In this document: in pieces, positions 1-31,172 of the stretch
Numbering within the stretch: position 1 is the stretch's first letter
Layout of the letters: each line of letters starts with the position of its first letter
From: a virus
Taxonomy: Duplodnaviria; Heunggongvirae; Uroviricota; Caudoviricetes
Virus record (IMG/VR): IMGVR_UViG_3300013121_000003
Coordinates: 1 to 34,673 of that record
Length of the DNA: 34,673 bases
Strand: one strand, 5' to 3'
The notes under the pieces: model-generated
Told to the model about the DNA's origin: nothing
Seen by the model: the letters and a program-made list of their open reading frames with translations, nothing else
Database searches by the model: none
Made by a program: the position numbers and the translations under genes

Positions 1-153
1 ACGAGCAATCCAATATTTTGTATTATCATTTAATTCATGATGATCTAATAATTTAGTTCTATGTTCATTAGTTCCACGACGAGCAATCCAATATTTTGTA
101 TTATCATTTAATTCATGATGATCTAATAATTTAGTTCTATGTTCATTAGTTCC
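1..153 (-). repeat. 78-bp tandem repeat (at least 2 units visible)
   Basis: ACGAGCAATCCAATATTTTG starts at both 1 and 79. Confidence 0.95.
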
Positions 154-270
154 ACCACTAGCAATCCAAGATTTTTCTTTATATGAAATATTAGGATTAG
201 ATAGACATTTATCTAACCATCCTGGATGTTTCATTTTAATAAGTTCAAGAGATGAATATTTATCTAACAT
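1..270 (-). CDS. 26-aa tandem-repeat (HEAT-like) protein, paralog of 19244..19804; runs off the window edge
   Basis: Manual translation from ATG at 270: MLDKYSSLELIKMKHPGWLDKCLSNPNISYKEKSWIASGGTNEHRTKLLDHHELNDNTKYWIARRG...; not in the ORF track because it is truncated. Confidence 0.9.
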   Translation of the reverse strand, partial: MLDKYSSLELIKMKHPGWLDKCLSNPNISYKEKSWIASGGTNEHRTKLLDHHELNDNTKYWIARRGTNEHRTKLLDHHELNDNTKYWIAR

Positions 271-458: not shown

Positions 459-807
459 TTTTCTGTTCTCCTAGTGGCGGAATGATGACAATAGGAATAC
501 CAATCTCTGTAGCAAAATCAATCTCTCTCCTTACACCAACCGACTTTTCCCAACCTGGGATGCAGTAAACATGCAACACTCTAGATAGTCTCAAGAAGGA
601 CATATTGAACTCGTCCCAAAATTTGGCGTCTGTTGGAAGATTATGCTTTTTGGCCAATTCATGACCATAAACGATTGGAGAAAAAGGAATTTGACCACGA
701 TTTATTAAATCAGAACAATACTTCATTACTAAGTGATATCGTTCTTCCATAACTTTATGTTCAGGATGTGAATAAGGTGAAGCAACGTATATAATGTTAA
801 TCTCCAT
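439..807 (-). CDS. DUF1937 / nucleoside 2-deoxyribosyltransferase-like protein
   Basis: IYVASPYS, FSPIVYGH and GWEKSVGVRREI motifs. Confidence 0.8.
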   Translation of the reverse strand: MEINIIYVASPYSHPEHKVMEERYHLVMKYCSDLINRGQIPFSPIVYGHELAKKHNLPTDAKFWDEFNMSFLRLSRVLHVYCIPGWEKSVGVRREIDFATEIGIPIVIIPPLGEQKNGQYRI

Positions 808-1159
808 AAAAAATTTTTTCTCTTGGCACTTGATATTTATACTTCTTCTTTAAAATTTTTCTTTGTTCATCTGTGCCATAATAATGTATTTGAAGAATAG
901 AATATATTTCTAAATGTTGATATTTCAAAAGAGAATCAAATATTTCTTTATTTCCCCAAAAAGACAAAAAATTTACAATTGAGGTTGGCAATTTTCTTTT
1001 TTCAATCAAATTAATCATCATTGGTTCATTTAAATATGTTCTAGAAAGTTGAACTAATTCTTCATGGGACAAATCAGTATTGTCTATACATTTATTTACC
1101 CATACATCATTTCTTTGTCTTATTAACAATCTTGACGAATATATATCTAATTTGGTCAT
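797..1159 (-). CDS. divergent member of the DxYSSxxLI helical-repeat family
   Basis: N-terminus KLDIYSSRLLIR; degenerate repeat IHYYGTDEQRKIL. Confidence 0.65.
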   Translation of the reverse strand: MTKLDIYSSRLLIRQRNDVWVNKCIDNTDLSHEELVQLSRTYLNEPMMINLIEKRKLPTSIVNFLSFWGNKEIFDSLLKYQHLEIYSILQIHYYGTDEQRKILKKKYKYQVPREKIFYGD

Positions 1160-17642: not shown

Positions 17643-19247
17643 TTGATGCTATCTTTTAGTCAGTTTGCTTTATTACTTGAAAATCGAATTGAATATCTCA
17701 AACAAAATTCTGGTGTCCATCCAGACATTATTGATAAGTTAGCAGAAATTGATCCTTCTGAAAATAAACAATATACACAATGGCTTGTTAAACAACATAA
17801 ACTTGGACATGTTCTTCCTCAACACGAAAACCATAAAGAATTTATAATTCCAAATTCAGATAATTCTATAACTACATATAGCGAAAAAGGAAGTAAAAGA
17901 CTTCATAATTTAGTTCTAAAACATTTTCAGCATCCTAATGTTCAAAGACAAATGTCTGAAAAAGGATTGTCAAGAGATTTAAATTCATACAAAAACATTC
18001 ATGAATTACATTCTAAAATTAGCAATATTGATGAAAATGCTCCATCTGAAAAAGAAATGAAAAGAAGAGCAATGGAAGGTTCTGAGAAAATTCACGAAGA
18101 ACCTGGATTGAAAGTCTATAAAGTAACGACTCCTGAAGCTGCTAAAATTCATGGTAAAGGAACTAAATGGTGCACGGCATCAACTAATCCAGATTATGCC
18201 CATCATGCCGTAAACTATTTGAAAGCTGGCCCATTATACGTTTTCCATCAATTTGAAGATGCTGAAAACAAAAAACCATCTGGTAGAAAAGTTCAACTTC
18301 ACATTTCTGATTCACGTCGATATGAATTTAAAAATGAACTGAATGATAATGGAGATTTAGACCATTTTGTTTTTAACCATCCTAGTTTAATTGAACATCC
18401 TGAATTTAAAGGAAAGCACGATGCTTTCCTGGAACCAAAAGAAAGAATTGAAAAATTACTTGGTAACAACAGATATAGAGAAGCTGTTTACAAATATCGT
18501 GCTCACTTGATGCCTGAATTTTCTAATAGAATTTGGAGAAAAGCTAAAGTTGATGAACATGTTGCTGGTGAAATAATTGGCGACACTGCTATTAATAAAC
18601 ATAATATGGATAAAAAAGAACATCTTAAATTGACAAATAAAATTATAGATGAATTTCATGATCATCCAAGTTCTGATATTAGAAATCAACTTTCACACAA
18701 TACTTCACAAAGAGGACTTGAGAAACTAGCTTCAGCTAAACCAGTTGGTAAAGGTAAAGATAGATTTTTAGATGAAGTTCATGAAGATATCCTGAATCGA
18801 GGAAACAAGAAAGTTCATTTGGCTGCCGCTCAATCACCAGATAAAATGCTTAGAACTAAAACAGTTCTGTCATCTCCCCATCAACATGAAGTTCATGAGG
18901 CTTTCATGAACAGTCATTATAATGATCATGAATCACATACATATAGTCTTGATCCTCATGCTGGTCATTCTGTATCTTCGATGTTGGCTGGACGACAAGA
19001 ACATGCAGAAGAACATATTGCTCGGGCTGGACATAAACCTCACCTTGACAAGTTAATTCATCATGATAACCCTTGGGTTCGTGCAGAAGTCATGAAACAT
19101 GGCCATGACGATCACCTTAGAGTTGGAATGAATGACGACAACGAACAAGTTCGTGCCGTTGTTGCCAGTCATCCAAAGTTTGCTCACTTAATGCTCAATG
19201 ACAAGTCTCAATTCGTGAGAGACAAAGCCAAGGCAAACATGCGATGA
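17643..19247 (+). CDS. putative internal head protein: capsid-targeting-like leader, TKWCTAS domain, His-rich HEAT-like C-terminus
   Basis: MLSFSQFALLLE leader; paralog of 23736..25592; DNPWVRAEV / DNEQVRAVV / DKSQFVR repeats. Confidence 0.7.
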   Translation: MMLSFSQFALLLENRIEYLKQNSGVHPDIIDKLAEIDPSENKQYTQWLVKQHKLGHVLPQHENHKEFIIPNSDNSITTYSEKGSKRLHNLVLKHFQHPNVQRQMSEKGLSRDLNSYKNIHELHSKISNIDENAPSEKEMKRRAMEGSEKIHEEPGLKVYKVTTPEAAKIHGKGTKWCTASTNPDYAHHAVNYLKAGPLYVFHQFEDAENKKPSGRKVQLHISDSRRYEFKNELNDNGDLDHFVFNHPSLIEHPEFKGKHDAFLEPKERIEKLLGNNRYREAVYKYRAHLMPEFSNRIWRKAKVDEHVAGEIIGDTAINKHNMDKKEHLKLTNKIIDEFHDHPSSDIRNQLSHNTSQRGLEKLASAKPVGKGKDRFLDEVHEDILNRGNKKVHLAAAQSPDKMLRTKTVLSSPHQHEVHEAFMNSHYNDHESHTYSLDPHAGHSVSSMLAGRQEHAEEHIARAGHKPHLDKLIHHDNPWVRAEVMKHGHDDHLRVGMNDDNEQVRAVVASHPKFAHLMLNDKSQFVRDKAKANMR

Positions 19248-19804
19248 AATTCGATAAATATTCATCTGTTGAACTTATTAAAATGAATCATCCAGGATGG
19301 TTAGATAAATGTCTATCTAATCCTAATATTTCATATAAAGAAAAATCTTTGATTGCTATAAATGGAACTGATGAACATAAAACTAAATTATTAGATCATC
19401 ATGAATTAGATGATAATACAAAATATTGTATTGCTCGTAATGGAAATGATGAACATAGAACTAAATTATTAGATCATCATAAATTAGATGATAATACAAA
19501 ATATTGGATTGCTCGTAATGGAACTGAAGAACATAAAACTAAATTATTAGATCATCATGAATTAGATAATAATACAAAATCTTGTATTGCTCGTCATGGA
19601 ACTGAAGAACATAGAACTAAATTATTAGATCATCATGAATTAAATGATAATACAAAATATTGGATTGCTCGTTTTGGAACTGAAGAACATAAAACTAAAT
19701 TATTAGATCATCATGAATTAAATGATAATACAAAATCTTGTATTGCTCGTCATGGAACTGAAGAACATAGAAATAAACTAATGAAAATGGGATTCATATT
19801 ATAG
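19244..19804 (+). CDS. 26-aa tandem-repeat (HEAT-like) protein
   Basis: Five full units plus one partial unit of GTxEH[K/R]TKLLDHHELxxNTK[Y/S][C/W]IARx. Confidence 0.92.
   Translation: MKFDKYSSVELIKMNHPGWLDKCLSNPNISYKEKSLIAINGTDEHKTKLLDHHELDDNTKYCIARNGNDEHRTKLLDHHKLDDNTKYWIARNGTEEHKTKLLDHHELDNNTKSCIARHGTEEHRTKLLDHHELNDNTKYWIARFGTEEHKTKLLDHHELNDNTKSCIARHGTEEHRNKLMKMGFIL
19364..19771 (+). repeat. 78-bp tandem repeat, about 5.2 copies
   Basis: Units start at 19364, 19442, 19520, 19598, 19676 and 19754. Confidence 0.97.
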
Positions 19805-19846
19805 ATAAATATTCATCTGCTCAACTCATTGATAGGATTTTTTTAA

Positions 19847-20392
19847 TTGACTACTAATCCAGAATCACCAACGGCCTTAAGTTCTGTTCCGACTAATCCA
19901 AATTTACTTTCGAACGCAGGATTTAAACTTGTTATTCGAAAATCACCACATATAAATTTCTTTTGTCAACAAGTAAATATTCCTGCTCTTGCTCTAAATG
20001 CAGTTCCTAAAAGTAATCCATTTGTCAAGTTAAATTATACTGGCGATCACATTGATTATTCTCCATTGGCAGTTACTTTTAGAGTAGATGAAGAATTAAA
20101 GAATTGGTTAGAAATTCATGATTGGATTAAATTAACTGGATTTCCAAACAGATTTCAGGAACGTGCTGAAATTGAAGCTGAAGATAAAGTAATTGGTCGG
20201 AATATCGAATCCGACATTTCTCTTTTCATTCTTTCTTCTCATAGAAATCCTAAGATTGAAGTGATTTTTCGAGATTGTATTCCAGTCTCATTAACTGAAC
20301 TTGAATTTGATTCAACTAATACTGAAGTTGAGTATTTCGAGGCCACGGCTATTTTTTATTATACGTCTTATAAGATTGATCGTGTTACCTAA
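19847..20392 (+). CDS. 3: tail completion / sheath stabilizer gp3-like protein
   Basis: NLLS..GFKL....P.INFFCQQVNIP, GDHIDY and F.VDEEL.NW.EIHDW motifs; synteny with uvsY and uvsW; GATAAATA upstream. Confidence 0.85.
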   Translation: MTTNPESPTALSSVPTNPNLLSNAGFKLVIRKSPHINFFCQQVNIPALALNAVPKSNPFVKLNYTGDHIDYSPLAVTFRVDEELKNWLEIHDWIKLTGFPNRFQERAEIEAEDKVIGRNIESDISLFILSSHRNPKIEVIFRDCIPVSLTELEFDSTNTEVEYFEATAIFYYTSYKIDRVT

Positions 20393-23341: not shown

Positions 23342-23739
23342 AGGAGAATATCTTGGAGAACGTAAAGCATTTTCGTTTAATCAATGGGGAAGAAGTTCTA
23401 GCTGAAATTTTTGAAGAGAATAAAACAAACATCATAGTCAAGAACCCAATGCAGGTTATTGATAATTCTGGATCAATCGTCTTGACTAAGTTTATCCCAT
23501 TTTCGAAAGATCAGCTTCTAAACTTTGACAGATTTCATGTTATTACTATTTCTGATCTTCATGATGAAATGGTAAGATATTACAACAATTCTATTCTTAT
23601 TTCTATGAATGCAACGGAGAAATCAATTGAGGGAATTTCTAAGGTTAATGATATGATGGAAGATTATATTCACAATTCAAGCGATCCGTCTGATGATTTT
23701 TTTGCTATGATCCAGCCTTCATCCAATACGATTCATTAA
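23338..23739 (+). CDS. Sm-like protein conserved downstream of uvsW in T4-like phages
   Basis: FRLINGEEVLAE...VKNPM motif; synteny. Confidence 0.7.
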   Translation: MKENILENVKHFRLINGEEVLAEIFEENKTNIIVKNPMQVIDNSGSIVLTKFIPFSKDQLLNFDRFHVITISDLHDEMVRYYNNSILISMNATEKSIEGISKVNDMMEDYIHNSSDPSDDFFAMIQPSSNTIH

Positions 23740-25592
23740 TTTTTCTTTTTGTAATATTTTGTATTCTTGGCATGAAACATAACATTGTTATTTTCGTCAT
23801 TCGATAATTTGTCTAGGACATGATCAGGAGTATGTTGGTTTTGCGCAACTCTTCCTCTTATTTGAGGAAGATGATGTTTCGACATGGCTTCTAAAACTTC
23901 TGGATCGTGTGAGAACGTTGCTGCGGCCATGTGTAATTCTATATGTCTTGAATTGGCTGCGGCTCGATGATTGTCTTCATCGAACATAATTCCTTTATGT
24001 GCAATTTGTTGGGCTAACCAACCTGAATCACTTTTTGGACGCTGACTCAAATCTTTTATCATATGAGTTATGTGTCTATTTTCACAATTAGGATTATCAA
24101 GAATTTGTTTCTTGATATTATTAGAATCGTGGTGAATCATTTTATCAATGACGTTTGTATCACCAAATCTTGCAGCAATTGCCTTTGTTCTTTCTGGTTG
24201 ATGAACATCAGTAAACAGATGTGGATACGTGTATGCCAGTGAAGAACGAACAATTTCTGAAGAATCGTCTTTCAGTTTATGAACATATCTTTCTGGTTCA
24301 GAATCAGCGGCATATTTTCTCATTTGTTCATCAGGATGAACTGACATTTTGTCTAAGAGTTTATGTTTTCTGTCATCATCTAAATTACTGGAAATTCCAG
24401 CTAAATGTTGTGCTGTATGATATGAACCAGTAGGTTTATGTTTGTCGAGAACTTTATTAGCCAGATGAAATTTTTCACCATGTTCCATGTCATCTCTGTT
24501 TAAAACTGACATAAGAGTATTGGAACGAATATGTGAAGATTCGTCTTCATCAACTAATTTGTGAAGGAACTCTTTTGGTGTTTTTGGGTTTGTAGACAAT
24601 CCTTCACGAACTTCATTTACGTCATGGTAATTATCAATTAGGTCTTTGATAATTCCAGGATGAACTGCATGTTCAGCAACATGTCCTTTAACTTCATCAT
24701 CGTCATCATCGATAAATTTACGATGAACACGATCACGATGATTGTAACTTCTTTCGGATTCTTTATCTATAATAGCTTTCTTCACTTCTGCACTTGCATC
24801 ATCATAAAGATGTGGAAAATCATGATGTGCAGAATGGGTTTCAACAGCTTCAACTCGATCACTTTCATTATGAGAATGAACTAAGTCATAAATTTGTTGA
24901 TGAATATCATGTTCATCTTCTTCCTCGGGAGAATGATGACTGTAATGAGCTTCTTTGAAATCATCCCAACCATGAACATTTTTGACGGCAGGATGACGTT
25001 GTTCTAATTCATGAGGTTCGACTTCATTATTATTAATATCTTTTAGTTCTGGAACCTTACCTTTTCCACCTTCGAACCATTGATATTTTTCTTCTGGATC
25101 ACCCGTATGAAGAATTTTTAATCCTCCTGCTTTCAAATAACTTGCAACGTGACCACTATTTCTTGATGCCGTACACCATTTAGAATCACGTCCATGATAT
25201 TCTGCCTGTTCAGGAGTTTTAGCAGAATATACTTTAATTCCATCTTCATCGAGAATTTTATTACCAACGAACGGATGAATAGAATTGTTCAAATCTTCAA
25301 TAGATTTATACTGATTAATATCAGTTTTTCCACCAAGAAAATGCTTATGATGCGTTTTGATCTTATCGAAATGATCTAGAGTTTCACGGTTTTTTGCATT
25401 GATAAATTCGTTTCCCAATAAAGGAAATTCGCCTTTCTTATGTCTTTTGATCAACCATTGAGTATAGACTTTACTTTCTGTTGGATCAGCTTGAGCAATC
25501 TTATCAACATCATCAGGGTGTAATCCAGATGTTTTCTTAAGATACTCAATTCTATTTTCAATAAGAAAGACGAATTCAGAAAACCTAATCAT
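23736..25592 (-). CDS. putative internal head protein: capsid-targeting-like leader, SKWCTAS domain, HEAT-like repeats
   Basis: MIRFSEFVFLIENRIEYLKK...ADPTESKVYTQWL; paralog of 17643..19247. Confidence 0.7.
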   Translation of the reverse strand: MIRFSEFVFLIENRIEYLKKTSGLHPDDVDKIAQADPTESKVYTQWLIKRHKKGEFPLLGNEFINAKNRETLDHFDKIKTHHKHFLGGKTDINQYKSIEDLNNSIHPFVGNKILDEDGIKVYSAKTPEQAEYHGRDSKWCTASRNSGHVASYLKAGGLKILHTGDPEEKYQWFEGGKGKVPELKDINNNEVEPHELEQRHPAVKNVHGWDDFKEAHYSHHSPEEEDEHDIHQQIYDLVHSHNESDRVEAVETHSAHHDFPHLYDDASAEVKKAIIDKESERSYNHRDRVHRKFIDDDDDEVKGHVAEHAVHPGIIKDLIDNYHDVNEVREGLSTNPKTPKEFLHKLVDEDESSHIRSNTLMSVLNRDDMEHGEKFHLANKVLDKHKPTGSYHTAQHLAGISSNLDDDRKHKLLDKMSVHPDEQMRKYAADSEPERYVHKLKDDSSEIVRSSLAYTYPHLFTDVHQPERTKAIAARFGDTNVIDKMIHHDSNNIKKQILDNPNCENRHITHMIKDLSQRPKSDSGWLAQQIAHKGIMFDEDNHRAAANSRHIELHMAAATFSHDPEVLEAMSKHHLPQIRGRVAQNQHTPDHVLDKLSNDENNNVMFHAKNTKYYKKKN

Positions 25593-26750: not shown

Positions 26751-26829
26751 AGCGGGATAGAGAAGTTCGGTCGTTCTCGCCTGTCTCATACGCAGGAAAT
26801 CGAAGGTTCAAATCCTTCTCCCGCTACCA
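26751..26829 (+). tRNA. tRNA-Met(CAT)
   Basis: AGCGGGA/TCCCGCT acceptor, CCTGT-CTCATAC-GCAGG anticodon arm, GGTTCAAATCC, ACCA end. Confidence 0.9.
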
Positions 26830-26859: not shown

Positions 26860-27790
26860 ATGGCAAAGCTAAACCAAATCCTAGCAGTTGAAAAAGGTGT
26901 TAAACCAAAAGTTTATGCCGAAGTATCTGAACTTTATAAGATCGTGCAAAAGCCTGATCTTTTTAATGGAATTTCTCGTCAATATGTCAAGAAGAATGAT
27001 GACGACGAAGACCTTCCGGCAGAAAAGAAGCGAGTTCAGGTTCTTTCAAATGAAGTCCTCAATCGTGCTGAAAGAATTCTTTCTGATCTTTTTCAGGTTG
27101 AAGCTAGGAAGGATTGGTCGAATTGTCTGGCTATGGCAACGATTTCCGTTGATGGAAAGCCAATCCTTGAGAATGTTCCTGTCACTTATTTGCTGTTCCT
27201 CGAAAAGCAAGTAACGGATATCAGGACACTCTATGCAAATCTTCCGGTCTTGGATGATGCAGACGAATGGAAGTTCGATGCTGATTCAGGACTCTATCGA
27301 ACCGAACCAAGAAGGTCCAGAAGCCTTTGGTTCTGTATCATGCAACAGAAACGCACCCTGCACAAACTCAGATGATCACTGAGGATGTTGTTGTTGGCTG
27401 TTGGGAAACGGTCAAGCAATCAGGAGCTATTCCCAAGACAATTAAGTTGTCAAAGTTGGCCAAGATTGATAAGCTTCGAAGTCCTTCCAGTGCCGCCTCA
27501 TGGGCAGACTTCTGTGCGGTCCGTCGCTCATGGCGAGCTCTCCAATGTCATATTACTAGTATATAATTGGTGACAATGTCAAATTTTTTCCCGCCATGAC
27601 GTTTTTGATTGCGTAAAGTATTGAATATCGATACTTTATGCACATGAACTCAGGATCACGTCCGAATGCCCGTAGCTACCTAGAGCGACTCGCCACCAGC
27701 GGGCGCTATCAATTGAATGTTCGGAACTAATTTCCCCAATTATTGGTTCATCGGCAATCGCAATCGATTTTTGGGGATACTTAATCCGTT
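26860..27790 (+). pseudogene. conserved hypothetical (MAKLNQILAVEKG family) gene, frameshifted and interrupted by an insert
   Basis: Track ORFs 26860..27375 and 27327..27566 join as ...YRTEP / KKVQKPLVLYHATETHPAQ...; the C-terminus is broken near 27476. Confidence 0.7.
27476..27712. other. GC-richer, apparently foreign insert: divergent promoter region with two truncated gene starts
   Basis: Minus ATG at 27531 (MSDGPHRSLPMRRHWKD, GGAGAG RBS); plus ATG at 27638 (MHMNSGSRPNARSYLERLATSGRYQ); inverted repeat 27611-27641. Confidence 0.55.
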
Positions 27791-29220: not shown

Positions 29221-29715
29221 TTAATTATCATGTGTCAAATACTTGTGCCAGTCATCAAAATGATCTGCCACATGATACACAAGACCAAAGGAATGTGTTT
29301 TTCCTTCAAGACGATCTTGATTAACCCGATGATTTCCATCAACAAGATAATAGATTCCTTTGTGATGAATAAACCAAGGATATTCTGGTTCATGTTCTCT
29401 CCACTTTCCGAGAATTTTTTGTTGAACAACATCTTTAGAAACTGTTGATTGACCAGACACAATTTTATGAATAGGAACGTGTTCTGGTTTATCGTTCACA
29501 TGTTGGAAATATCTTTCCATCATTGGATAAGTTATATTCGGTCTTTTATTAGTTCTAGGAATCGTGTTCATCATTTGATCTGATTGATCTTTTCTCAATC
29601 TACTAGAATATTTTGAACCGGGTCTTCTTTGTCGAGCATGAATATAATCAGCCAATTTGACTGCTCTTTTTTTATCTCTGGCAACTTCGATTAAGAACTC
29701 TGAAAAACTTAACAT
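29221..29715 (-). CDS. ParB/Srx-fold protein with capsid-targeting-like leader
   Basis: MLSFSEFLIE; VPIHKI.SGQ and YYLVDGNHRV motifs. Confidence 0.75.
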   Translation of the reverse strand: MLSFSEFLIEVARDKKRAVKLADYIHARQRRPGSKYSSRLRKDQSDQMMNTIPRTNKRPNITYPMMERYFQHVNDKPEHVPIHKIVSGQSTVSKDVVQQKILGKWREHEPEYPWFIHHKGIYYLVDGNHRVNQDRLEGKTHSFGLVYHVADHFDDWHKYLTHDN

Positions 29716-29716
29716 A

Positions 29717-30346
29717 CTAATCTATCTTGTAAATTACGTCTGCGAATGATTGATCTGCTTTAGAATATCCAATAGGGAAGAGAAAGTTTTCGATGTCGTT
29801 TCCACCACGTTCACATGCGATCACTGGTTTGAATTTCTTAATATGTTCTTCAGCACCTTTCAGAACATTTAATTCATATCCTTCAACATCTAACTGAAGA
29901 AGGTCTAGATGATTAAGATGGAACGAATCTAGTTTGAGTTGTGGAATATTTCCCATTTGCGGAATGACTTGATTCATTCCACGATTATTTTCTACTTGAA
30001 TTTTCATTTGAACCGTCGTGGCTTCATCACCTAAAGCAGCATTGATTTTGATAATATTTTCTGATTGGCAGTTATTTACTAGACAGTAAAAATTAAGAGG
30101 ATCGGGTTCGAACGTATAGACTGTCTCGAATAGACGACCAAAGAGTCTAGGATACATCCCTTGATTACCACCAGCACAAACAACCATCTTTCTTCCTTTA
30201 AGATATTGAAGATATTTGGTCATATGTGATAGTTCCCAATCATGCTTGGGTCCATTCCATGCACCAGTTTCATCAATGATCCAAGTCCAAGGACCGATAT
30301 CATCAACTGTTTCTGTTCTGGTATATGTCTGGTTAGCAAAAGTCAT
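29717..30346 (-). CDS. FkbM-family SAM methyltransferase
   Basis: AGGNQG, FEPDP.NF and LDVEGYE..VLKGA motifs. Confidence 0.9.
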   Translation of the reverse strand: MTFANQTYTRTETVDDIGPWTWIIDETGAWNGPKHDWELSHMTKYLQYLKGRKMVVCAGGNQGMYPRLFGRLFETVYTFEPDPLNFYCLVNNCQSENIIKINAALGDEATTVQMKIQVENNRGMNQVIPQMGNIPQLKLDSFHLNHLDLLQLDVEGYELNVLKGAEEHIKKFKPVIACERGGNDIENFLFPIGYSKADQSFADVIYKID

Positions 30347-30843
30347 TTTTTCTTTCTATCATATGGATGTATATAACCTTTTGGAATAGGAACGTATTCA
30401 TCTTTTTTTCTATCATAATGTCTTTTATGTTTAGAATATTGGTAGTAGATTTCTTCGTCGTCCGGTCCATAACCTTTATAACTAACATCTTTAAAAAATT
30501 TCATTTTTTGTGGTGATCTTGCGCCATTAGTATTTAATGCATCATAATGTTTTCCATTTAAATATATCCATGCATGGTTGTTATCATTTAAATGAGAAAA
30601 TTCTGATACCTTCAATGAATGACCAAGTTCTTCTGCTTGACCTCTTGTCCAAGAAGCAGAATCAATTTTATGTGGTTTGTATCCATGAGCAACTAAATTA
30701 TCATGAAGTTTATCTCTAAATTCATAACATCTTCCACCAGAACAATTTGCATCAGCAGTAAAACCAGAATTTTTTAAGGTTTCTTTAACTATTGAAGATA
30801 TACTTTTCTTTTCTTCTAATATGAATTCTTTGAATGATAACAT
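30343..30843 (-). CDS. putative papain/transglutaminase-fold protein with capsid-targeting-like leader
   Basis: MLSFKEFILE; GRCYEF...HAWI...HYDA (C-H-D). Confidence 0.6.
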   Translation of the reverse strand: MLSFKEFILEEKKSISSIVKETLKNSGFTADANCSGGRCYEFRDKLHDNLVAHGYKPHKIDSASWTRGQAEELGHSLKVSEFSHLNDNNHAWIYLNGKHYDALNTNGARSPQKMKFFKDVSYKGYGPDDEEIYYQYSKHKRHYDRKKDEYVPIPKGYIHPYDRKKK

Positions 30844-31172
30844 CAGTTCATTTTCTTTGATGGTTTAGACTTAAGTTTGTATTTTCCTGGATTTCTTTCA
30901 ACATCAGGCTTAACATGTAACTTCCGTTCTTGGCCAGTTTTCTTATGAACCATAACCAGACTGATATGTCTCTTAGAAATTTCATTATTGGGACCAAGGT
31001 CTTTGGAACCATATTCTGTAGAAAAATATTCCCAATCATTCTTGGGGTTCATACCTCTATTAAACAGTTTCTTTTGAAGATTACCAATACGTTTATCATC
31101 AACATCATTGTATTGATTGATCCATTCACTTTTCTTTTGTTCTTCGATAATAAACTCTAAAAAAGATAACAT
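30843..31172 (-). CDS. small protein with capsid-targeting-like leader
   Basis: MLSFLEFIIE; late promoter upstream. Confidence 0.65.
   Translation of the reverse strand: MLSFLEFIIEEQKKSEWINQYNDVDDKRIGNLQKKLFNRGMNPKNDWEYFSTEYGSKDLGPNNEISKRHISLVMVHKKTGQERKLHVKPDVERNPGKYKLKSKPSKKMN

What the first reader, a model, noticed from the sequence alone, without database searches (positions are those of the whole stretch)
19244..19804. 78-bp repeat array with only non-synonymous variation: a possible programmable 26-aa repeat code
Seen: the five full units here and the two units at 1..153 show no synonymous difference. Every change alters an amino acid and falls at a few fixed positions. The last codon before GGA (including the leader half-units) is AAT, CAT, TTT, CGT or GGT (N/H/F/R/G). 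The pair four to five residues earlier is YC, YW, SC, SW or SL. The rest are T/N, D/E/N, K/R, E/K and D/N toggles. Most variable sites have A as one allele, and the hypervariable codon is AAT>NNT, which resembles DGR adenine mutagenesis, but no reverse transcriptase is in the window. Inference: these are helical-hairpin solenoids with a homogenised scaffold and diversified specificity residues, like TALE RVDs or PPR codes. They may be a phage system generating variable binders of nucleic acid or host defence proteins.
Basis: partly seen in the sequence, partly recalled or inferred. Interest (0 to 1): 0.85.

Follow-up and report, generated by a model that had tools for sequence, protein, structure and literature searches.

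The report
Shuffled helical-repeat binder family in phage
A large uncultured bacteriophage carries 21 related small repeat-protein genes, and three of them swap nearly identical 26-amino-acid units that differ almost only in protein-changing letters, likely giving varied binding surfaces for a host protein rather than a DNA-reading code.

Summary
The array is real: five 78-bp units in a 186-aa ORF, with 0 synonymous among 13 variant alleles in the window. Genome-wide (three young paralogues) it is 1 of 19. The protein is predicted to be a two-helix-per-repeat solenoid related to LRV/HEAT-like repeats, one of 21 paralogous ORFs in a 163-kb T4-like phage. Units are recombined within and between genes. 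Core positions never change. The variable positions on the predicted exposed helix are also the variable ones in 11 arrays from other genomes.

The lack of silent changes is weaker evidence than it looks. Third codon positions are about 95% A/T, and a null that keeps substitution types gives P=0.27 (0.11 with leaders). The fitted dN/dS is about 4; 0.5 or less is rejected, but 1 is borderline.

A DGR is not supported: no reverse transcriptase, Avd or template repeat was found, and silent adenines are invariant. A nucleotide code is neither supported nor excluded.

Best reading: a phage counterpart of fungal HNWD repeats (concerted evolution plus a diversified binding face), likely binding host proteins. 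The target is unknown and there is no read support.

The parts
19244..19804 (+). Gene A, 186 aa: leader + five 26-aa units + C-terminal half unit; predicted 14-helix solenoid
   Evidence: GC3 0.06, lowest of 129 ORFs of 150 aa or more in the genome
19244..19363 (+). Leader (N-cap) with the family's D-K-Y-S-S start, ending in a diverged half unit; start overlaps the upstream stop (ATGA)
19364..19753 (+). Five full 78-bp units; amino-acid variation genome-wide at unit positions 2,3,6,7,14,16,17,18,21,22,26; none at 1,4,5,8-13,15,19,20,23-25
19754..19804 (+). C-terminal half unit and stop
19801..19857 (+). 18-codon remnant of a second family leader without a start codon; holds ATAAATA at 19805, a possible T4-type late promoter (motif recalled) for the next gene
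1..270 (-). 5' part of paralogue B (93% identical to A over 267 nt), cut by the contig start; its 3' part lies at G000:C1:162845-163167
17643..19247 (+). Upstream 534-aa gene with weak 24-aa HEAT/LRV-like C-terminal repeats and an N-terminus resembling T4 capsid-targeting sequences (resemblance recalled, not tested)
   Evidence: (HEAT E 0.002, under cut-off)
19847..20392 (+). Downstream tail-tube-like gene (context)
   Evidence: phrog_45 E 6e-39
797..1159 (-). Older diverged paralogue, 120 aa
16296..16649 (-). Older diverged paralogue, 117 aa
21220..21483 (+). Older diverged paralogue, 87 aa

Best explanation
Gene A is the youngest member of a 21-gene phage family of 26-residue repeat proteins, predicted to fold as LRV/HEAT-like helical solenoids, whose units are shuffled within and between three genes, likely by recombination, and likely kept diverse by selection on one helix face that would bind a changing host protein such as a defence factor. 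Shown: the repeats, the paralogues, mosaic units, an invariant core, and the same variable positions in other arrays. Predicted: the fold and the face. Inferred: unequal crossing-over or gene conversion as the engine, diversifying selection, a protein ligand, and a counter-defence role. No reverse transcriptase is needed.
For: 21 family frames genome-wide. 14 of 21 biallelic site pairs show all four combinations; units differ about as much within genes (6.25 nt, 16 pairs) as between genes (6.83 nt, 29 pairs). Fitted dN/dS 4.4 (units) and 3.8 (with leaders); 0.5 rejected (2dLL 7.3 and 12.2); 1 gives 2dLL 2.9 and 4.5. Recent changes fall where 19 units of older paralogues vary (rho 0.52, p 0.007). 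In 11 homogenised arrays from other genomes, mismatch is 0.66 at positions 17,18,21,22,25,26 versus 0.25 elsewhere; correlation with this phage's profile rho 0.48, p 0.02. In 22 sister units of Vibrio phage vB_VmeM-32, pN at 17/18/21/22 is 0.65, pS 0.57 and core pN 0.11. Model: helix 57-66 = unit positions 17-26; the wheel puts 17,18,21,22,25,26 at 0-180 degrees and invariant 19,20,23,24 at 200-340. Atlas structure neighbours are LRV/HEAT clusters, TM up to 0.77; 5 of 32 scanned relatives pass the Pfam LRV cut-off. The spacing matches the variable positions 18,19,22,23,26 of HEAT-like alphaRep protein binders (PMC3754942, passages; register aligned by eye).
Against: Type-conditioned null P=0.27 for units and 0.11 with leaders; only 19 alleles. 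Codon 26 is not a significant hot spot (P=0.086). Several toggles (positions 2,3,6,7,14,16) are conservative and lie off the proposed face; position 25 is invariant here. The VmeM-32 sister repeats have abundant synonymous change (pS 0.57), so the no-silent pattern is not family-wide, and face pN roughly equal to pS also fits relaxed constraint. Gene A has no Pfam LRV or HEAT hit. No ligand, host or expression data. No close relative was found to replicate the DNA test.
Confidence: 0.5

Rival explanations
1. Ordinary young repeat expansion: the solenoid core is under purifying selection and the surface is simply free to drift. Silent changes are missing because third positions are already A/T-saturated, so G/C-to-A/T changes can only be non-synonymous. 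No adaptive diversification.
For: GC3 5-8% in A, B and C versus a median of 29%; p(synonymous)=0 for every G- or C-origin substitution type, and 10 of 19 alleles are of these types; type-conditioned P=0.27; dN/dS=1 not rejected for units alone (2dLL 2.9); face pN close to pS in VmeM-32.
Against: With leaders, dN/dS=1 gives 2dLL 4.5 although core positions have no amino-acid change, which implies faster-than-neutral change elsewhere; six amino acids at position 26 among 10 full units; alleles held at intermediate frequency across three loci despite homogenisation.
Confidence: 0.33
2. Programmable nucleic-acid code: each 26-aa unit reads one base through residues 17/18, 21/22 and 26, as TALE, PPR or PUF repeats do.
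For: Best Foldseek TM-scores are to PUF domains (0.53-0.54; none with E<=0.001); VIA Z 10.2 to a PPR and 9.0 to Puf4; weak Pfam PUF match (E 3.7e-5, 23.8 bits, cut-off 26.3); aromatic, Arg, His and Asn side chains at variable sites.
Against: All fold scores are under the Z 13 bar for helical repeats and Armadillo proteins rank first; the PUF match covers profile positions 21-32 only; most paralogues have 1-3 repeats, too few to specify a site; pI 6.8, net charge about -1.
Confidence: 0.07
3. DGR target: adenine-directed mutagenic retrohoming from a template repeat makes the variation.
For: A is one allele at 13 of 15 variable sites; codon 26 is N-N-T.
Against: No RVT_1 (0 of 1 genome; control rang in 4 of 14) and no bAvd in a genome rated complete; no non-coding copy of the unit; in a hypothetical all-A template only 13 of 41 adenines vary and none of the 11 with a silent alternative shows a silent change; two variable sites have no A allele.
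Confidence: 0.03
4. Assembly artefact: mosaic units come from mis-joining reads across similar repeats.
For: The contig breaks inside gene B; the 47-bp terminal repeat occurs four times, all in these arrays; no reads were examined.
Against: The longest exact repeat among the arrays is 77 bp (none of 80 bp in the genome) and 48 bp within A; A has unique flanks and an open frame; mis-assembly would not spare synonymous and core sites; similar arrays occur in other genomes.
Confidence: 0.05

Closest known systems
Fungal HNWD/NLR repeats with high internal conservation (Podospora het-d, het-e; PMC1805685 abstract, PMC11761791 passages)
   Same: Multi-gene family, near-identical repeats exchanged within and between loci, a few variable residues on an interaction face. 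This is what it works like.
   Different: Phage, not fungus; stand-alone 26-aa alpha-solenoid with no NACHT or effector domain; positive selection only borderline here; no ligand known.
LRV (PF01816) / HEAT-like repeats, parent type of alphaRep binders (PMC3754942 passages)
   Same: Two helices per repeat; variable positions with the same spacing on one helix; 5 of 32 scanned relatives pass the LRV cut-off; Atlas TM up to 0.77.
   Different: Gene A has no LRV or HEAT Pfam hit; 26-aa unit with a His-rich linker two residues longer than the 24-aa sister repeat; family-specific leader.
24-aa 'HEAT repeat protein' paralogues of Vibrio phage vB_VmeM-32 (KU160494, e.g. ALY07043)
   Same: T4-like phage with several paralogues of a sister repeat, same scaffold and same variable positions.
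   Different: Older arrays with many synonymous differences (pS 0.57); 24-aa units; 27% identity to A.
TALE / PPR / PUF code proteins
   Same: Helical repeats with a uniform scaffold and a few variable residues.
   Different: Shorter unit, few repeats per protein, variation over 11 positions, no significant sequence or fold match.
Diversity-generating retroelements (PMC3240598 abstract)
   Same: Targeted amino-acid diversity in a phage gene.
   Different: No RT, Avd or template repeat found; silent adenines unchanged.

Membership tests
DGR | Reverse transcriptase in the element | tested here: not met
   PF00078: 0 matches at E<=1 in G000, rated 100% complete; control 4 of 14
DGR | Accessory Avd protein | tested here: inconclusive
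   PF22296: 0 matches, but no control genome passed the cut-off
DGR | Non-coding template repeat differing from the target at adenines | tested here: not met
   blastn hits with E<=0.006 lie in family ORFs or the leader remnant
DGR | Variation confined to and spread over template adenines, silent ones included | tested here: not met
   13 of 41 adenines vary, no silent change at 11 eligible ones, 2 of 15 sites lack A
LRV / HEAT-like repeats | Profile match to PF01816 or PF02985 | tested here: not met
   No hit for gene A at E<=1; 5 of 32 relatives pass LRV
LRV / HEAT-like repeats | Two-helix repeat stacked into an alpha-solenoid | tested here: met
   Predicted model, 14 helices, pLDDT 89.7; Atlas neighbours LRV/HEAT, scores under the bar for naming a family
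HNWD-type concerted repeat repertoire (mode of evolution) | Repeat exchange within and between paralogues | tested here: met
   14 of 21 four-gamete pairs; within- and between-gene distances alike; recurrent mutation not formally excluded
HNWD-type concerted repeat repertoire (mode of evolution) | Positive selection at interaction-face codons | tested here: inconclusive
   dN/dS about 4; value 1 at 2dLL 2.9-4.5; type-conditioned P 0.11-0.27
HNWD proteins (family membership) | WD40 repeats with NACHT and effector domains | tested here: not met
   186-aa all-helical protein, no such Pfam domains
TALE/PPR/PUF code proteins | Profile match above cut-off | tested here: not met
   PUF 23.8 bits versus cut-off 26.3; no TALE or PPR hit
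TALE/PPR/PUF code proteins | Fold specific to the family | tested here: inconclusive
   Z 9-10 to PPR/PUF, 11-12 to Armadillo, all under the bar for helical repeats
TALE/PPR/PUF code proteins | One repeat reads one base | not testable with these tools
   Needs binding assays

The most novel reading that the evidence does not exclude
The phage carries an RT-free, recombination-programmed recognition code: 26-aa units are shuffled among loci, and each unit's residues 17/18, 21/22 and 26 read one base or one epitope element, making this the smallest modular code repeat and a phage counterpart of TALE/PUF proteins.
Probability: 0.07. Interest if true: 0.85.

Novelty: new variant of a known kind. 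Interest (0 to 1): 0.45.

Why it matters
If the best reading holds, a lytic T4-like phage keeps a self-renewing library of small binding proteins by repeat shuffling plus selection, as fungi do for non-self recognition, without a reverse transcriptase. The variable face marks where to look for the host target. Related repeats are fused in other phages to proteins that look head-packaged, so the family is a candidate source of counter-defence factors and of a compact 26-residue binder scaffold. Four literature searches found no description of such a phage family. If the neutral rival holds, it is an unnamed LRV-like paralogue expansion and a caution that all-non-synonymous variation can arise from A/T saturation.

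Tried and rejected
Close relatives: none in viral contigs with gene A, paralogue D or three relatives as queries (the 24-aa type), none in metagenome contigs. Four viral DNA-pattern hits and 37 tail-tube loci held no family member (0 of 41 loci). Of 5 pattern hits in GTDB genomes I read 3; one (L065) is a real but old 24-aa array. So no second young array could be tested at DNA level.

Pfam Acyl-CoA_dh_N passes its cut-off (27.4 bits) only by summing short repeat hits with no significant stretch: rejected. NCBIfam SurE and SpbR are far below cut-off. PHROGs gave nothing better than E 0.002. The PDB sequence profile hits only designed Armadillo proteins. No LRV chain appeared among the listed PDB fold matches; that is inconclusive.

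A shared mobile promoter cassette was considered because A, B and C hold GATAAATA in their leaders. Most older paralogues have GACAAATA or other letters and share no upstream motif: not supported. The sigma-70 scan was at chance level (20 versus 17.4).

The core-avoidance P of 0.002 uses a core list I chose after seeing the data, so I rely on the older-paralogue and other-genome comparisons instead. The circular join through gene B was not used for the statistics. PMC5512222 and PMC7824862 (term searches only) do not describe this family. Not obtained: read data, the viral fold-library search and the alignment-based second model.

Full report
Observation. Gene A (19244-19804, +) encodes 186 aa: a 40-aa leader, five 26-aa units (19364-19753) and a C-terminal half unit. 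A second gene, B, starts at 270 on the minus strand and is 93% identical over 267 nt. Among the in-window units there are 13 variant alleles and none is synonymous.

Setting. The window is the start of a single 163,167-bp viral contig, 36% GC, rated complete. Its major capsid protein is 63% identical to that of Stenotrophomonas phage DLP_6 and at most 57% to the other 14 listed records, so it is an uncultured T4-like phage without close relatives; tail-tube relatives reach only 41%. An iterated profile finds 21 frames of one family across the genome, most beginning with a D-K-Y-S-S-like leader and carrying one to six units; the two ends of B count as two of these frames. They sit between other phage genes on the same strand, often overlapping a neighbour's stop, with a cluster of six at 86.3-89.1 kb. 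A, B and C (105.5 kb) are near-identical in their units; the rest are diverged. The contig breaks inside B. The 47-bp terminal repeat occurs four times in these arrays, so B's unit number is unknown. No exact repeat in the genome reaches 80 bp, and the longest within A is 48 bp. No reads were examined.

Is the lack of silent change more than chance? Over 10 full and 2 partial units of A, B and C there are 19 alleles, 1 synonymous; the leaders add 10 alleles, 1 synonymous. A flat null gives P=0.015-0.094 for units. But these genes have 5-8% G+C at third positions, against a genome median of 29%; A is the lowest of 129 ORFs of 150 aa or more, a set that includes shadow frames. Every change from G or C is therefore non-synonymous by construction, and 10 of the 19 alleles are of that kind. 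Keeping substitution types fixed, P is 0.27 for units and 0.11 with leaders. A Poisson fit with transition and GC bias gives dN/dS 4.4 and 3.8. Values of 0.5 or less are rejected (2dLL 7.3 and 12.2), while 1 gives 2.9 and 4.5, about p 0.09 and 0.035 on one degree of freedom by my conversion. The count treats each allele as one event and ignores import by conversion. Codon 26 has the most alleles, but the clustering is not significant (P 0.086). So ordinary purifying selection is excluded; diversifying selection is likely but not established.

The scaffold is constrained. No amino-acid change occurs at positions 1, 5, 9, 10, 15, 19, 20, 23 or 24. Recent changes fall at positions that vary among 19 units cut from 13 of the 17 older frames (rho 0.52, p 0.007; one unit is visibly out of register). 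Units are mosaics: 14 of 21 pairs of biallelic sites show all four combinations, and units are about as similar between genes as within them. This points to unequal crossing-over or conversion within and between loci (inferred).

Fold. AlphaFold2 from the single sequence gives 14 helices, two per unit, pLDDT 89.7 for the best model; two of five models agree at that level. Unit positions 17-26 form one helix. On a wheel the invariant 19, 20, 23, 24 lie on one arc and 17, 18, 21, 22, 25, 26 on the other; I had no coordinates, so surface exposure is inferred. The Atlas model's neighbours are LRV/HEAT clusters (TM up to 0.77, under its bar for naming a family). PDB searches give generic solenoids: no Foldseek match at E<=0.001, best TM 0.53-0.54 to PUF; VIA Z 12 Armadillo, 10.2 PPR, 9.5 alphaRep, 9.0 Puf4. 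These do not discriminate protein from nucleic-acid binding.

Family. A profile search of 1.84 billion representatives returns 118 proteins, including about a dozen from this genome. Others carry the same 26-aa unit or a 24-aa sister; 5 of 32 scanned pass the Pfam LRV cut-off. Four relatives (P0003, P0008, P0017, P0018) are each on record from one contig of 6,375 bp, probably the same one, suggesting a second paralogue cluster. In P0010, P0027, P0052 and P0069 the repeats follow an N-terminus resembling T4 capsid-targeting sequences; in the first three the domain between looks like that of the gene upstream of A, by eye. That resemblance is my recollection; PMC9026906 (passages) describes such propeptides and the anti-restriction internal protein IPI, but I did not test the motif. 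Gene A lacks it. Of 110 proteins not from this genome, 11 have homogenised arrays (at least two units, 55% identity); their mismatch is 0.66 at positions 17, 18, 21, 22, 25, 26 and 0.25 elsewhere. Cultured Vibrio phage vB_VmeM-32 has several paralogues of the 24-aa type. Its 22 units show core pN 0.11, pN 0.65 at 17/18/21/22 and pS 0.57, uncorrected. This confirms the variable face but shows plenty of silent change, so the no-silent pattern belongs to the young A/T-rich arrays only.

DGR. No RVT_1, no bAvd (weak control) and no non-coding template. In a hypothetical all-adenine template, 13 of 41 adenines vary, none of the 11 with a silent alternative changes silently, and the Cys/Trp toggle involves no adenine. 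This conflicts with adenine-directed retrohoming (PMC3240598, abstract).

Mechanism. I commit to a recombination-shuffled binder family. Homogenisation spreads one scaffold, point changes on the exposed helix are shuffled among units and loci, and selection likely keeps variants that bind a changing host protein. A protein ligand is favoured because most members have 1-3 units, net charge is near zero, and the variable spacing matches alphaRep positions 18, 19, 22, 23, 26 (PMC3754942, passages; register set by eye). The counter-defence role is the weakest step. Confidence 0.5; drift on a free surface 0.33; nucleotide code 0.07; artefact 0.05; DGR 0.03.

Comparison and novelty. It works like fungal HNWD repeats, which are exchanged within and between ten genes and have four positively selected residues on the interaction surface (PMC1805685, abstract; PMC11761791, passages). 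It is not a member of that family. Structurally it is an LRV/HEAT-like offshoot without a Pfam hit of its own. Searches of the open library found no account of this phage family; subscription papers and supplements were not seen. Two earlier AI notes report the same kind of pattern in phage beta-solenoids; I did not check them. Verdict: real, new variant of a known kind, interest 0.45.

Noticed in passing
window 19801-19857: Remnant of a second family leader directly after gene A's stop; its D-K-Y codons spell ATAAATA about 40 nt before the tail-tube-like gene, so the family's start motif overlaps a possible late promoter. The same heptamer is in the leaders of A, B and C.
   Followed up: partly
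L002 1000-1221 (G000 105499-105720, minus): Paralogue C ends early; its tail resembles A's C-terminal cap out of frame, suggesting a recent small deletion.
   Followed up: partly
window 17643-19247, 23736-25592, 29221-29715, 30343-30843, 30843-31172; G000 155763-157115: Six ORFs share an M-L-S-F-x-E-F-like N-terminus resembling T4 capsid-targeting sequences (recalled); the two at 17643 and 23736 share a central domain and end in weak LRV/HEAT-like repeats.
   Followed up: partly
L008 (G000 126554-127007, minus): One paralogue starts just downstream of tRNA-Leu; relative P0078 begins with a stretch that looks like a translated tRNA 3' end, hinting at the same position in another phage.
   Followed up: no
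L006 (G000 86349-89127): Six paralogues in two tandem groups flank a 312-aa gene that resembles T4 gp5 by recall.
   Followed up: no
window 26860-27573: ORF 26860-27375 and overlapping frames to 27573 look like one gene broken by a frameshift, next to tRNA-Met at 26751-26829.
   Followed up: no
L065 1117-1683: A 244-kb contig in a Gammaproteobacteria MAG carries a 24-aa sister array among phage-like genes; its leader matches P0046. Possibly a mis-binned phage.
   Followed up: partly
P0082: A 2126-aa relative joins LRV repeats to an ADP-ribosyltransferase domain of polyvalent proteins.
   Followed up: no
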